Assembly: GCF_009914755.1 (NCBI RefSeq)
Contig: NC_060944.1
Reading direction: 5' to 3' (one strand)
Origin: the human T2T-CHM13v2.0 reference genome, Homo sapiens
DNA length: 64,000 nucleotides
Shown in pieces: positions 14,834-31,230 of the stretch. The translations under genes and the position numbers were made by a program. The notes below the pieces were generated by a model, which worked only from the letters and a program-made list of their open reading frames with translations, did not search any database and was not told the DNA's origin. Every line of letters starts with the position of its first letter. The stretch's first letter is position 1.

Positions 14834-17497
14834 AGAATTAGATGGACTTCAGTTGAATCACATTCTACCAAACTGTAAAATTTGGTGGCAAATTTTACTT
14901 AACCTTTCTGAATCTAAGTTTTCTCATCTGTAAAAATGTGAAGTTAGATTAAATAGGTTTAAGTAATAGATGAAGTCACCCATTGTAGCAATTTTAGAAA
15001 ATATTTGCTTTATTATTTATTTTATTCCTTTCTTATTTAGTATGTCCCAAAAGTATATATTTTTTTCTTTTCCTTTTTAGTTAACACCTCATAATTGGAC
15101 CTATTTATGAGATAAAGTGATATTTCAATACACGTGCAATGATCAAATACAATGTACAATGACCAAATCAGGATAATTAACATATTTGTCACTTCAAAAA
15201 TTATCATTTCTTTGTGTTGAGAACATTCAAAATCTTCTACCTTTTTCAATGTACCATAAATTATTGTTGATCGTATTCATCCTACATTGCTACAGAGCAC
15301 TAGGACTTATTCCTCCTATCTAGCTGTAATTTTGTATCTGTTAACCATTATCTTCCTACCCCTGCCTTTCTCAGCCTCTAATAACAACAATTCTACTCTC
15401 TACTTTTATGAGCACAACTTTTTAGCTCCTATATGAGTGAGGACCTGTGGTATTTATCTGTTTTTCCAACTTTTCATTTGGATTATTAGTTGTTTTGCTA
15501 TTGAGTTCCTTATATATTCTGGATATTAGTCCTGTTTCATATGTATAGTTTGCAAATGTTTTCTCCCATTCTACAGATTGTCTCCTCACTTTGTTGTTTC
15601 CTTTGCTGTGCAGAAGCTTTTTAGTTTGAGGTAGTACCATTTGCCCATTTCTGTTTTTTGTTGCCTGTGCTTACCCATAAAATCTTTGCCTAGACCAGTA
15701 TCCTGAGGATTTTCCCTATGTTTTCTTTTAGCAGTTTTATACTTTTGGGTCTTACATTTAAGTTTTTAATTCATTTTAGGTTGATTTTTGTATATGGTAA
15801 GAGATAAAAGTCCAGTTTTATTCCTCTGCATATGGATATCCAGTTTTCCCAGCACCATTTAGTGAAGAGGGTGTCCTCTCCTCAATTTATATTCTTGATG
15901 CCTTTGTTGAAAATCAGTTGACTGTAAACATATGGATTTATTTCTGGTTTCTCTTTTATGTCCCATTGGTCTATATGTCTGTTTTTATACCAATACCATG
16001 CTGTTTTGGTTACTATAGCTTTGTAATGTATTTTAAAGTTAGGTAGTGTAATGCCTCTAGCTTTGTACTTTTTGCTCAAAAGTGATTTGGCTACTTGTCT
16101 TTTGTGGTTTCACACATATTTTAGGATTAAAAAATTTCTGTGAAGAATATCATTGATATTTTGATGGAGATTGCGTTGAATCTGTAGATTGCTTGGGGTA
16201 GTATGATCATTTTAACAATATTAATTTTTCCAGTCTGTGGGCATGGGAGGTCTTTCCATGTTTTGTGTCCTCCTTAAATTCTTCCATTAGTATTTTGTAG
16301 TTTTCATCTTGGACATCTTTCACCTCCTTGATTAAATTTCTTCCCAAGTATTTTTTGGTAGCAATTGTAAATGGGATTGCTTTCTTGATTTTTTTTCAGA
16401 TAATTCATTATTGGTGTGTAGAAAATCTACTGATTTTTATATGTTGATTTGGTATCTTGCAACTTTACTGAATTCATTTACTAGTTCTAAGAGTTTTTCT
16501 GTGGAGTCTTTAGGTTTTTGTATCTATAAGGTCATGTTCTCTGCAAAGGGCCAATTTGACTTCCTCTTTTCCAATTTGGATGCCCTTTATATCTTTCTCT
16601 TGCCTAATTGCTTTGGCTAGGATGTTCAGTACTGCATTGAATAAGAGTGATGAAAGTGGGTATCCTTGTATTGTTCCAGTTCTTACAGGAAGAGTTTTCA
16701 GCTTTTCCATGTTCAGTCTGATGTTAGCTGTGGGTTTGTCATATATGATTTTTATTGTGTAGGTATGTTCCTTCTACACATAATTTGTTGAGAGTTTTCT
16801 TTTATCATGAAGGGATGTTAAAATTTACCAAATATTTTTTGTGCATCTATTGATCATAAGGTTTTGCCCTCCACTCTATTGGTGAGAGGTATCACATTTA
16901 TTGATTTGCATATGTTGAGCCATCCTTCCATCCCTGAGATAAATCCTACTTGACTGTGGTGTACTATCTTTTTGATGTGCTTTTGGATTTGGTTTGCTAG
17001 TATTTTGCTGAGGACTTTTACAACTATGTTCATTAGGGATATTGGCCTGTAGTTTTCTTTTTTGGTTGTATCCTTGTCTCACTTTGGTATCAGGGTAATG
17101 CTGGCATTATAGAATGAATTAGGAAGAATTCCCTGCTCTTCATTTTTTGGAATAGTTTCAGACAATTGGTTTTAGTTCTTCTTTGCACATTTGGTAGAAT
17201 TCAACAGTAAAGCCATCTGGCGGTGGGTTTGTCTTTGTTAGTCTGTTTAGGCTTTCTATTTCTTGGTAGGTTATATGTATACATGAATTTATCTGTTTCC
17301 TCTAGGTTTTACAGTTTTTGGAGTATAGTTGTTTATTAATAGTCTTTAATGATCTTTCTGTTTCTGTGGTATCAGTTGTAATGTATCTTTTTTTTTGCTT
17401 CTGATTTTCTTTATTTGGGTTGTGTCTCTTTTTTTCATGGTCTAGCTAATGGTTTATAGATTTTCTTTTGTTTCATTGATCTTTTTTGTCCTCCCTC

Positions 17498-17718
17498 CTT
17501 TTTTTTAGACAGGGTCTTGTTCTGTCATCTGGGCTGCAATGCAGTGGCACAATCATGGCTCAGTGTAGACTTGACCTCCTAGACTCAAGTGATCCTCCCA
17601 CCTTAGCCTCCTGAGTAGCTTGGGATCATAGGACCACAGATATGTGCCACTATGCCTGGTTAATTTATTCTTATTTTGAAATTTTGTAGAGATGAGTTCT
17701 TACTATGTTGCCCAGGCT
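17498..17718 (-). mobile_element. Partial AluJ within L1MA
   Basis: Alu consensus, reverse. Confidence 0.85.
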
Positions 17719-19521
17719 GCTGCTTGATCTTTATTACGTTTTTGTTTTTATTAATTTTGACTTTGGTTTTCCCTTGCTTTTCTACCTTCTTAAGGTACAT
17801 CATTAGGTTGTTTATTTGGAATATTTCTACTTTTTTGATGTAGATGTTTATTGCTATAAACTTTTCTCTTAGCACTGCTTTTGCTGTATCCCATAGGTTT
17901 TGGTATGTTGTGTTTCTGTTTTCATTTGTTTCAAGAAATTTTTTGATTTCCTTCTTAGTTTCTTCACAGACTCATTGGCCATTCAAGAGAATATTAATTT
18001 CTGTGTAAAGTTTCTAAAGTTCTCCTTGCTATTGATTTCTAGTTTTATTCCATTGTGGTCTGAGAAGATATTTGATATGATTTCAGTTTTTGAAAATTTG
18101 TTGAGACTTGTTTTTTTGTGGCCTAATATGTGGTCTATCCTGGAGGATGTTCCATGTGCTGATAGGAAGAATGTGTATTCTGTGGCTGGCAAAATGGCCA
18201 AATAGGAAAAGCTCCCGTCTGCAGCTCCCAGCAAGACCAATGCAGAAGGCAGGTGATTTCTGCATTTCCAATGGAGGTAGCTGCTCATCTCATTGGGACT
18301 GGTTAGACAGTGGGTGCAGCCCACAGAGGGCGAGCCGAAGCAGGGTGGGGTGTCACCTCACCTAGGAAGCACAAGGGGTCAGGGAACTCCCTCCCCTAGC
18401 CAAGGGAAGCCGTGAGGGACTGTGCTATGAGGGACAGTGCCATCCAGCCCAGATACTACACTTTTCCCCTGGTGTCTTCACAACCCGCAGACCAGAAGAT
18501 TCCCTCAGGTTCCTACACCACCAGGGCCCTGGGTTTCAAGCACAAAACTGGGCACCATTTGGGCAGACACCAAGCTAGCTGCAGGTTTTTTTTTTTTTTT
18601 TTCATTTACAGTGGCACCTGGAATGCTAGTGAGACAGAACCATTTACTCCCCTGGAAAGGGGGCTGAAGCTAGTGAGCCAAGTGATCTTGCTCAGTGGAT
18701 CCCACCCCCACAGAGCCCAGCAAGCTAAGATCCACTGGCTTGAAATTCTCGCTGCCAGCACAGCAGTCTGAAGTCGACCTGGGACACTGAAGCTTGGTGG
18801 GGGGAAGGGTGTCTGCCACTACTGAGGCTTGAGTAGGTGGTTTTCCCTTCACAGTGTAAACAAAGCCATCAGGAAGTTTGAACTGGGTGGAACCCACCAC
18901 AGCCCAGCAAAGCTGCTGTAGCCAGACTGCCTCTCTAGATTCCTCCTCTCTGGGCAGGGCATCTCTGAAAGAAAGGCAGCAGCCCCAGTCAGGGGCGTAT
19001 AGATAAAACCCCCCTCTCCCTGGGACAGAGCACCTGGGGGAAGGGGTGGCTATGTGTGCAGCTTCAGCAGACTTAAACGTTCCTGCCTGCTGGCTCTGAA
19101 GAGAGCAGCAGATCTCCCAGCACAGCACTCAAGCTCTGCTAAGGGACAGACTGCCTCCTTAAGTGGGTCCCTGATCCCCATGCCTCCTGACTGGAAGACA
19201 CCTCCCAGCAGGGGTCGACAGACACCTCATACAGGAGAGCTTCGGCTGGCATCTGGCGGGCACCCTTCTGGGACGAAGCTTCCAGAGGAAGGAGCTGTCA
19301 GCAATCTTTGCTGTTCTGCAGCCTCCGCTGGTGATACACAGGCAAACAGGGTCTGGAGTGGACCTCCAGCAAACTCCAGCAGACCTGCAGAAGAGGGGCC
19401 TGACTGTTAGAAGGAAAACTAACAAACAGAAAGCAGTAACATCAACAACAACAAAAAGGATGCCCACGAAAAAACCCCATCGGAAGGTCACCAGCATCAA
19501 AGATCAAAGGTAGATAAATCC

Positions 19522-29947: not shown

Positions 29948-30153
29948 ATTTCTTTTTTTGAGATAGAGTCTCGCTCTATTGCCCAGGCTGGAGTACAGTG
30001 GCATGATCTTGGCTCACTGTAACCTCTGCCATCTGGGTTCAAGTGATTGTCCTGCCTCAGCCTCCCGAGTAGCTGGGATTACAGGAGCCTGCCACTATGC
30101 CCAGCTAATTTTTGTATTTTTAGTACAGACGGGGTTTCACCATCTTGGCCAGG
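29948..30153 (-). mobile_element. 5'-truncated AluS
   Basis: Alu consensus; ATTATTTTGA direct repeats. Confidence 0.88.
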
Positions 30154-30775
30154 CATTATTTTGAATTTTTAAAAGGTATTTCATATATTTCCTTTTCTTT
30201 GGGGTCTGTTTTGGAAAATTATTGTGTTCCTTTGGTAATGTCGTGTTTTGCTTTATCATGTTTCTTTTGTCCCTGTGTTGATGTACGTGCAGTCACTTCT
30301 TCCAATTTTATGGAGTAGCTTTCACAGGGAAAGACCTTTTTCTGTAGATGTAGCTATAGTGTTGGTTGGATATGATACTCTGGCTTTGGTTCTGGTTGAG
30401 TGCAGTAGTGTAGTCTCCATATGATTTCTTCAGCTGTAATCAACGTCAGCAATATCCACAAGTTTCTCAGTGGCTTAGGCTGTGATTGTTTGTGGAAGCT
30501 GTGATTGTTTGTTTGCTGAGGACAAGGACATTAAATAGGCTGGGTTTTGGGCCCCTGAGGGGCACATGTGGGTGGGCAGCATCCCCTCTGCTAGAGGGGG
30601 CAGATTTGCTGATGTGGAGTCAGTGGATCCCAGGAAGGCTGGTCCCAGGTGGCAGGCCCCAGGTGGGCCAGTTCTTGGGCCCCTGTGGATTGCACACAGA
30701 CATGAGGCAGCCTCACCGCTGGGATGGGTGGGGTCACCAGTGCTGGTAGCAGTGGGCTCCAGGGTTGGCTACTAG

Positions 30776-31230
30776 TATGTCAAAGGAGATAGCTGAGAAG
30801 TAACATTAGTTTATCAGTGGATCTGGACCTGTAGAAAGATTTATTCCTTTGAGGATCATCTTTGCTTTCTGGAAAACTTCTTTAGTATCTGGGCCTGCTT
30901 CATGCTCATTCTATGATTCCTATATTGATTCCGCTTCCTATTTTTGCTCCTTATAATGACTGATTTCAAAACTGAGCCCTTCATATCCTGATTAGCAATA
31001 GATCTCAAGCTTTTGATTGGTAAATTTCAGACTGGTTGCTGCTACTATCCTTCCCTCTCTCTACTTTTTCTGAATGTCCAGCAGGGAGAGGATGAGTGCG
31101 ATTGGCTTTGCCACTTCTCTTCGACATTCTGGAGACTTTACCATCATAGCAATCTCATGGGTTAAGGGAAGTGAATAGCCAATATTTTACAGAGGGATTT
31201 CATTCCCCGGCTTTATATGCAGAAAATTCA
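30776..31230 (+). pseudogene. Candidate relic exon body, separated from its acceptor at 15040 by the L1MA insertion
   Basis: YVKGDS*EVTLVYQWIWTCRKIYSFEDHLCF...QRDFIPRLYMQKI; ~151 codons, 6 stops of which 5 are TGA. Confidence 0.42.

What the first reader, a model, noticed from the sequence alone, without database searches (positions are those of the whole stretch)
15020..31230. A 15.7-kb L1MA block appears to split an exon from its splice acceptor
Seen: TAGTATGTC occurs at 15038-15046, at the end of a strong acceptor (ttattttattcctttcttatttag|) and just before the L1 T-tail. It recurs at 30773-30781, just after the L1 5' region. Removing the L1 joins the acceptor to a ~151-codon phase-0 frame (YVKGDS*EVTLVYQWIWTCRK...). 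Inference: this is a TSD, and the L1 inserted at the start of an exon of the candidate gene, either causing its loss or following it. Since this L1 also hosts AluJ and MSTA copies, the loss would be ancient.
Basis: partly seen in the sequence, partly recalled or inferred. Interest (0 to 1): 0.72.

Follow-up and report, generated by a model that had tools for sequence, protein, structure and literature searches.

The report
Old L1 insertion, no split exon
This is an ordinary ancient LINE-1 retrotransposon, later filled with younger repeats and bounded by its own target-site duplication, and the sequence beside it shows no sign of ever having been an exon.

Summary
The 9-mer TAGTATGTC is at both stated places. 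It is the start of a 19-nt target-site duplication: 15038-15059 against 30773-30791, 17 of 19 matching plus a 3-nt insert. The duplication touches the T-tail at 15060 and the last L1-like base at about 30772. Between them lies one collinear minus-strand full-length L1. About two thirds of the 15.7 kb is later insertions. These are a 5.6-kb plus-strand L1, two more L1 3' fragments, a 2.4-kb LTR element, several Alus and a truncated 7SK pseudogene. So the TSD inference holds.

The exon inference does not hold.
- The "151-codon frame" has 6 stops. The window's background is 8.1 per 151 codons, and 34% of such stretches have 6 or fewer. The longest open run is 57 aa.
- There is no Pfam match even at E 10. 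The only hit among 1.84 billion proteins is a spurious repeat match.
- 25 plus-strand sites in the window are at least as acceptor-like.
- No annotated transcript has an exon there.

Contiguity in outgroup genomes could not be tested. Ordinary; low interest.

The parts
15015..15040 (+). Acceptor-like pyrimidine tract ending in AG (A at 15039, G at 15040)
   Evidence: Read. It has 18 of 21 pyrimidines upstream of the AG. 25 plus-strand sites in the window score equal or better. No annotated exon starts here (hub table).
15038..15059 (.). Left copy of the target-site duplication (22 nt, including a 3-nt insert CCA at 15047-15049)
   Evidence: It aligns to 30773-30791 with 17 of 19 matches and ends one base before the T-tail.
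15060..15079 (-). Poly(A) tail of the old L1, seen as a T-rich run on the + strand
   Evidence: Similarity to other genomic copies of the L1 3' end stops at about 15061 (query positions about 535-545 of the minus-strand query).
15080..18189 (-). Old L1: 3' UTR and most of ORF2 (RT 16513-17078, endonuclease C-terminal part 17986-18357)
   Evidence: Pfam RVT_1 and Exo_endo_phos on minus-strand ORFs. It is collinear with the younger L1's ORF2 by tblastn. 40 other genomic places are 72-79% identical at the 3' end, some listed as several pieces.
18190..23766 (+). Younger, nearly full-length L1 nested in the opposite orientation (ORF1 19423-20532, RT within 22159-23532, A-rich tail about 23745-23766)
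   Evidence: Pfam Transposase_22 at E 1e-56, Tnp_22_trimer, Tnp_22_dsRBD and RVT_1 at E 6e-37. The ends were read.
23767..24310 (+). Two further plus-strand L1 3'-end fragments, each ending in an A run (23767-23901 and 23902-24310)
   Evidence: Read. The second is about 80% identical at protein level to 23368-23722 of the younger L1.
24311..24914 (-). Old L1 resumes (ORF2 N-terminal endonuclease part). A 22-nt duplication, 18166-18187 against 24309-24330 with 18 of 22 matching, flanks the plus-strand L1 cluster
24915..25240 (-). Alu
   Evidence: Sub-threshold Metazoa_SRP matches on the minus strand. Alu-like alignments appear.
25241..25694 (-). Old L1 ORF1 C-terminal domain
   Evidence: Pfam Tnp_22_dsRBD at E 1e-13 on 25363-25527. 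Collinear with other copies.
25692..26312 (-). Alu sequence (about two copies)
   Evidence: Metazoa_SRP sub-threshold matches at 25709-25857, 25895-26042 and 26196-26312.
26319..26496 (-). Old L1 ORF1 RNA-binding domain
   Evidence: Pfam Transposase_22 at E 1e-6.
26497..26829 (-). Purine-rich (GA) simple sequence on the minus strand
   Evidence: Translation (a run of G/E/R/K residues).
26830..29254 (-). Its LTRs are 26830-27224 and 28872-29254
   Evidence: At least 39 other genomic places match about 2.0 kb at 76-84% identity with sharp ends. The LTR pair is 329/381 = 86% identical (83% by BLAST). No Pfam domain inside. The family name was not tested.
29253..29364 (-). Alu-like monomer. A 27-nt duplication, 26460-26486 against 29373-29399 with 25 of 27 matching, flanks the cluster 26487-29372
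29366..29465 (-). Old L1 ORF1 piece (start of the RNA-binding domain)
   Evidence: Collinear in 4 of the 7 copies printed (L003, L004, L012; L011 by an overlapping piece, 29257-29370). In the wider run, which used a laxer threshold, 9 of 11 copies have a piece here.
29461..29696 (-). 7SK retropseudogene (RN7SKP140), 3'-truncated
   Evidence: Rfam RF00100 at 188 bits and E 4e-53. The alignment is good only for model positions 1 to about 242.
29697..29957 (-). Old L1 (5' UTR / ORF1 start region)
   Evidence: Collinear with 7 of 7 copies printed.
29958..30153 (-). Alu fragment
30154..30772 (-). Old L1 5' UTR. Its 5' end carries a diverged 128-nt tandem unit (30538-30634 and 30666-30763)
   Evidence: All 21 fetched copies align from 30154-30288 upward. 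Their main alignments end between 30499 and 30737, and none passes 30768. The tandem unit is shown, and 0.1% of dinucleotide shuffles reach its score.
30773..30791 (.). Right copy of the target-site duplication (19 nt)
30776..31228 (+). The claimed 151-codon 'exon' frame. It is not open and has no homology
   Evidence: 6 stops. No Pfam match. No credible protein match. Unique in the genome at BLAST level.

Best explanation
A full-length LINE-1 of an old mammalian-wide type inserted on the minus strand into non-coding DNA. The site is now an intron of the predicted lncRNA LOC105372558. The insertion was by target-primed reverse transcription. It left a poly(A) tail (15060-15079) and a 19-nt target-site duplication (15038-15059 and 30773-30791). 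At least eight later insertions then swelled the element from about 5.5-6 kb to 15.7 kb. These are three plus-strand L1 pieces, an LTR element, Alus and a 7SK pseudogene.

The acceptor-like tract to the left and the 'frame' to the right are chance features of AT-rich non-coding sequence, so no exon was split.

Shown: the anatomy, the duplication and the lack of coding signal. Inferred: the insertion mechanism, the order of events and the age.
For: 1. L1 domains lie in L1 order on one strand. RT is at 16513-17078, endonuclease at 17986-18357, the ORF1 C-terminal domain at 25363-25527 and the ORF1 RNA-binding domain at 26267-26746. They are collinear with the younger L1's proteins and with other genomic copies.
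2. Other copies' 3' similarity stops at the T-tail. None of 21 copies extends past 30768. An internal tandem unit carries L1-like sequence to 30763-30770.
3. The 19-nt duplication fills exactly the space between these two ends. 0.08% of shuffled flanks and 0.86% of random 40-mer pairs reach its score. A 9-mer abutting the 5' end occurred in 0.07% of shuffles.
4. The frame has 6 stops in 151 codons. The window mean is 8.06, and 34% of 846 same-size stretches have 6 or fewer.
5. There are no Pfam families for the flank ORFs. There are none for the three plus frames read through with X, even at E 10.
6. phmmer against 1.84 billion proteins gave 1 hit, at E 8e-4. It is a protein made of LCIWIP... 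repeats that matches one short motif four times.
7. 25 plus-strand sites are at least as acceptor-like as this one.
8. The hub's gene table lists no exon in 11721-42569.
Against: - The target site does not fit the L1 endonuclease consensus 5'-TTTT/AA, which is recalled here and comes from no call. The nicked strand would read ...GATA/GC, or ...TGTC/AA for a 9-nt duplication.
- Most genomic copies of this L1 5' region stop at about 30500-30570. Only 5 of 21 reach 30683 or beyond by their main alignment, so the last 200 bases are less securely L1.
- A very old pseudo-exon would have lost its frame, so stops alone cannot exclude one.
- The protein libraries searched are mostly microbial and metagenomic.
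- No outgroup genome could be examined.
Confidence: 0.88

Rival explanations
1. The L1 landed at the first bases of a protein-coding exon, parting it from its acceptor. The gene was lost then or had been lost before.
For: - The duplication begins at the AG of a pyrimidine-rich tract, so the join does place an acceptor-like site before the right flank.
- The right flank is single-copy in the genome.
- The cited frame has fewer stops (6) than the other two plus frames (9 and 9).
Against: - Six stops in 151 codons is within background: 34% of stretches in the window do as well. The first stop is at codon 7.
- There is no Pfam or protein-library homology.
- 25 equal or better acceptor-like sites lie on the same strand.
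- No annotated exon is present (hub table).
- No paper names the locus.
Confidence: 0.02
2. The repeated 9-mer is chance. The true ends of the L1, or its true duplication, lie elsewhere or have decayed.
For: - A third copy of the 9-mer lies at 7855.
- The target is not a canonical endonuclease site (the consensus is recalled).
- Most genomic copies end about 200-270 bases short of 30772.
Against: - The match extends to 17 of 19 bases and fills exactly the gap between the tail and the 5' end. 0.08% of shuffles reach its score.
- Only 0.07% of shuffles give a 9-mer abutting the 5' end.
- The tandem unit carries L1-like sequence up to 30763-30770.
Confidence: 0.06
3. The tract at 15015-15040 is a real but unannotated acceptor of a non-coding transcript, for example a rare LOC105372558 isoform. 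The L1 changed that transcript's exon.
For: - The block lies inside an intron of a lncRNA with 11 predicted transcripts (hub table).
- The crude acceptor measure also picks up two annotated acceptors of that lncRNA, with AG at 3063 and 3552 before the exon starts at 3065 and 3554.
Against: - None of the listed exons starts at 15041 or 30776 (hub table).
- 23 of the 25 plus-strand sites match no annotated exon, so the measure is not specific.
Confidence: 0.04

Closest known systems
Full-length LINE-1 insertion by target-primed reverse transcription, of L1M-type age, with nested younger repeats
   Same: It has ORF1 and ORF2 domains in order, a 5' UTR, a 3' UTR and a poly(A) tail. It has a flanking duplication within the usual 7-20 nt range. 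Younger Alu, L1, LTR and small-RNA retrocopies have inserted into it.
   Different: The target site is not the usual T-rich endonuclease site (consensus recalled). The 5' end carries an extra diverged 128-nt tandem unit that most sampled copies lack. The subfamily name L1MA could not be checked because no repeat library is on hand.
Gene disruption by L1 insertion into an exon, as in disease-causing de novo L1 insertions (recalled; no paper read)
   Same: An L1 with a duplication sits directly after an AG preceded by a pyrimidine tract.
   Different: No exon can be shown here. There is no open frame, no homology and no annotated transcript (hub table).

Membership tests
LINE-1 retrotransposon insertion | ORF1 and ORF2 (endonuclease, reverse transcriptase) domains in L1 order on one strand | tested here: met
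   Pfam matches on minus-strand ORFs. The order was confirmed against the nested L1's proteins and other genomic copies.
LINE-1 retrotransposon insertion | Poly(A) tail at the 3' end | tested here: met
   T-rich run at 15060-15079 on the + strand. Other copies' similarity ends there.
LINE-1 retrotransposon insertion | Target-site duplication abutting both ends | tested here: met
   19 nt, 17 of 19 matching plus a 3-nt insert. 0.08% of shuffles reach its score. The exact 9-mer core is shown.
LINE-1 retrotransposon insertion | Endonuclease target resembling 5'-TTTT/AA (consensus recalled) | tested here: not met
   The + strand at the inferred nick reads ...AGGAGATA/GCTG, or ...ATGTC/AAAG for the 9-nt version. 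Departures from the consensus are known, so this weakens the case for an L1 insertion but does not bar it.
LINE-1 subfamily L1MA | Best match to an L1MA consensus | not testable with these tools
   No repeat library is on hand. The only available fact is that copies are 72-79% identical to this one.
Protein-coding exon (intact or decayed) | Open frame, or stop density below background | tested here: not met
   6 stops in 151 codons against a mean of 8.06. 34% of 846 stretches have 6 or fewer. The longest open run is 57 aa.
Protein-coding exon (intact or decayed) | Similarity to a known protein or family | tested here: not met
   0 Pfam families. 1 spurious repeat hit among 1.84 billion proteins. 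The library is mainly microbial and metagenomic, so the reach for vertebrate proteins is uncertain.
Protein-coding exon (intact or decayed) | Functional splice acceptor | tested here: inconclusive
   The pyrimidine tract plus AG is present, but 25 plus-strand sites are equal or better. No splice-site model or RNA data is on hand.
Protein-coding exon (intact or decayed) | Conserved and contiguous in genomes lacking the L1 | not testable with these tools
   Only the window's own assembly and prokaryote genomes are held. The right flank has no second copy in the assembly.

The most novel reading that the evidence does not exclude
The single-copy right flank (30792 onward), together with the acceptor-like tract, is the remnant of an ancient exon. 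The exon could have been coding or non-coding, in the NKX2-4 / NKX2-2 interval, and was silenced when the L1 landed on its first bases. Only outgroup genomes would then still show it.
Probability: 0.02. Interest if true: 0.4.

Novelty: already known. Interest (0 to 1): 0.07.

Why it matters
It matters little. The finding is a textbook case of an old L1 with a preserved duplication and a stack of nested repeats in a gene-poor interval. Its use is as a worked example. The 9-mer a reader spots by eye can be real while the exon built on it is not. A frame with a stop at codon 7 and five more after it should not be called a frame. If an exon were shown in outgroups, it would point to a lost gene next to the NKX2 cluster, but nothing here suggests that.

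Tried and rejected
- Translating the whole block in three frames for Pfam failed because of stops. It was replaced by stop-free ORF references and by X read-through.
- A genome search with the L1's last 270 bases plus flank found only itself. The 5' end was therefore judged from sensitive local alignments to 21 fetched copies and from the internal tandem unit. Tandem Repeats Finder saw nothing there.
- I considered whether the acceptor-like tract is part of the dispersed repeat to its left, which I recall as a MIR core. Similarity in 3 of 3 tested copies ends at 14951-14971, short of the tract, so this is not shown.
- I considered whether longer ORFs further right (31500-33700) hint at a gene. 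The longest, 115 and 119 aa, read like Alu-derived peptides by recall, and no homology test was run on them.
- Paper searches for LOC105372558 and RN7SKP140 found 0 papers each.
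Full report
**The observation.** TAGTATGTC occurs at 15038-15046 and 30773-30781, and once more at 7855-7863. That is 3 matches against 0.49 expected, and 0 of 100 shuffles reached 3. To the left of the first copy lies a pyrimidine-rich tract ending in AG (A 15039, G 15040). To its right, after 13 more bases, lies a T-rich run at 15060-15079. The second copy follows GC-rich sequence directly.

**Is the block one L1?** Yes, with much else inside it.
- On the minus strand, Pfam finds reverse transcriptase at 16513-17078 and the C-terminal part of the endonuclease at 17986-18357. 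It finds the L1 ORF1 C-terminal domain at 25363-25527 and the ORF1 RNA-binding domain within 26267-26746.
- I used the proteins of the younger L1 in the same window as a ruler. The minus-strand pieces run collinearly: 15924-18186 is ORF2, 24321-24774 is the ORF2 N-terminus, and 25345-25545 and 26327-26485 are ORF1.
- Among the 7 other genomic copies printed, all 7 show 30154-30531 or further followed by about 29731-29957. Fewer carry the later pieces: 29366-29465 in 4 of 7, 26319-26496 in 5 of 7, 25241-25694 in 5 of 7 and 24309-24914 in 3 of 7. L004 alone shows all six in order.
- The 3' end has 40 other matched places at 72-79% identity. Their similarity stops at about 15061, inside the tail.

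**What fills the block.**
- A plus-strand L1 lies at 18190-23766. It has a 295-aa ORF1 stretch (Transposase_22 at E 1e-56) and a 458-aa stretch holding RVT_1 (E 6e-37).
- Two more plus-strand L1 3' ends, each with an A run, lie at 23767-23901 and 23902-24310.
- This plus-strand cluster is flanked by a 22-nt duplication of old-L1 sequence, 18166-18187 against 24309-24330, with 18 of 22 matching.
- 26830-29254 is a complete LTR element. It has at least 39 other matched places over about 2.0 kb at 76-84% identity. Its own LTRs, 26830-27224 and 28872-29254, are 329/381 = 86% identical, or 83% by BLAST. It has no Pfam domain. The name itself was not tested.
- Alu sequence lies at 24915-25240, 25692-26312, 29253-29364 and 29958-30153.
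- A 7SK copy lies at 29461-29696.
- So roughly two thirds of the 15.7 kb is younger than the host L1.

**The two ends.**
- The 3' end is the tail at 15060.
- For the 5' end I aligned 21 fetched copies sensitively. Their main alignments end between 30499 and 30737, and 5 of the 21 reach 30683 or beyond.
- Three of the 21 have a second alignment to 30661-30768. It maps onto the same part of the copy as 30540-30649.
- None of the 21 passes 30768.
- This pointed to a tandem unit. 30666-30763 aligns to 30538-30634 at 128-nt spacing, and only 0.1% of dinucleotide shuffles reach that score.
- L1-like sequence therefore runs to within a few bases of 30772.

**The duplication.**
- I aligned the 40 bases left of the tail against the 40 bases from 30771. 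The result is 15038-15046 plus 15050-15059 against 30773-30791: 17 of 19 matches with a 3-nt insert in the left copy.
- This alignment spans exactly from the L1 5' end to the tail.
- 0.08% of shuffled flanks reach its score. So do 0.86% of random 40-mer pairs from the window, a control that includes repeat-against-repeat pairs.
- An exact 9-mer in 50-nt flanks arises in 0.9-1.5% of trials. One abutting the 5' end arises in 0.07%.
- I take the duplication as real. One caveat remains: the inferred nick site is not T-rich, unlike the endonuclease consensus as I recall it.

**The exon.**
- From 30776 to 31228 the frame has 6 stops in 151 codons, the first at codon 7.
- Across the whole window, 846 stretches of that size average 8.06 stops. 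34% of them have 6 or fewer. 21% of shuffles of the same bases do as well.
- The longest open runs in the frame are 39 and 57 aa.
- None of the flank ORFs has a Pfam match. Nor do the three plus frames of 30776-31404 read through with X, even at E 10.
- phmmer of the cited frame against 1.84 billion representative proteins gave one hit at E 8e-4. It is a 153-aa protein built of LCIWIP... repeats that matches one short motif four times, and I discount it.
- The flank is single-copy in the assembly.
- Further right, the longest ORFs (115 and 119 aa) read like Alu-derived peptides by recall.

**The acceptor.** By a crude count, 25 plus-strand and 48 two-strand AG sites out of 8651 equal or exceed it. 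The count uses pyrimidines in the 21 bases before AG, requires a pyrimidine at -3, and allows no AG in the last 15 bases. Two of the 25 are annotated lncRNA acceptors. One is the L1's own T-tail. The hub's table shows no exon between 11720 and 42570.

**Age.** The old L1 must predate the LTR element inside it, whose LTRs have diverged by about 14-17%. With a recalled neutral rate of about 2e-9 per site per year, that is some tens of millions of years. This is an inference.

**Known kinds and novelty.** This is an L1 insertion of a well-known kind. Three of four hallmarks were tested and met, and the endonuclease site was not met. The subfamily could not be named. Paper searches for the lncRNA and for the 7SK pseudogene found 0 papers each. 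That says only that the locus is not discussed under those names in the library searched.

**Limits.** No outgroup genome, repeat library, splice model or RNA data were on hand. The protein libraries are mainly microbial and metagenomic. A very old pseudo-exon cannot be fully excluded, and I give it 2%.

Noticed in passing
18190-24310 (+), with 18166-18187 and 24309-24330: Three plus-strand L1 3' ends stand head to tail: a 5.6-kb near-full-length copy with 295-aa and 458-aa open stretches, then fragments of 135 and 409 bases. They share one 22-nt flanking duplication that is only 18 of 22 identical. The weak duplication suggests that the oldest piece went in first and the others landed in or beside it.
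   Followed up: partly
29372-29696 (-): The 7SK pseudogene RN7SKP140 aligns well to the Rfam model only for positions 1 to about 242 (29461-29696). The remaining 29366-29465 is L1 ORF1 sequence shared with other L1 copies. The retrocopy is therefore 3'-truncated, and the annotated span 29413-29696 overlaps L1.
   Followed up: partly
26460-26486 and 29373-29399: A 27-nt duplication (25 of 27 matching) of L1 ORF1 sequence brackets a cluster made of a purine-rich simple repeat, the LTR element and an Alu-like monomer. This is long for a target-site duplication.
   Followed up: no
30538-30772 (-): The old L1's 5' end carries a diverged 128-nt tandem unit. 16 of 21 sampled genomic copies end their main alignment below 30683, so this copy seems to have extra 5' units.
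   Followed up: partly
14878-14971: A dispersed repeat core sits in the left flank, with 17 other genomic matches at 82-95% identity over about 40 bases. By recall it is the MIR core. It stops about 45 bases short of the acceptor-like tract.
   Followed up: partly
7855-7863 (+): A third exact copy of TAGTATGTC lies here. It is unrelated to the L1 ends and is most likely chance.
   Followed up: no
3063 and 3552 (+): The crude pyrimidine-tract count used here picks out the annotated acceptors of LOC105372558 exons that start at 3065 and 3554. The measure therefore has some sensitivity but poor specificity: 2 of 25 sites are annotated.
   Followed up: no
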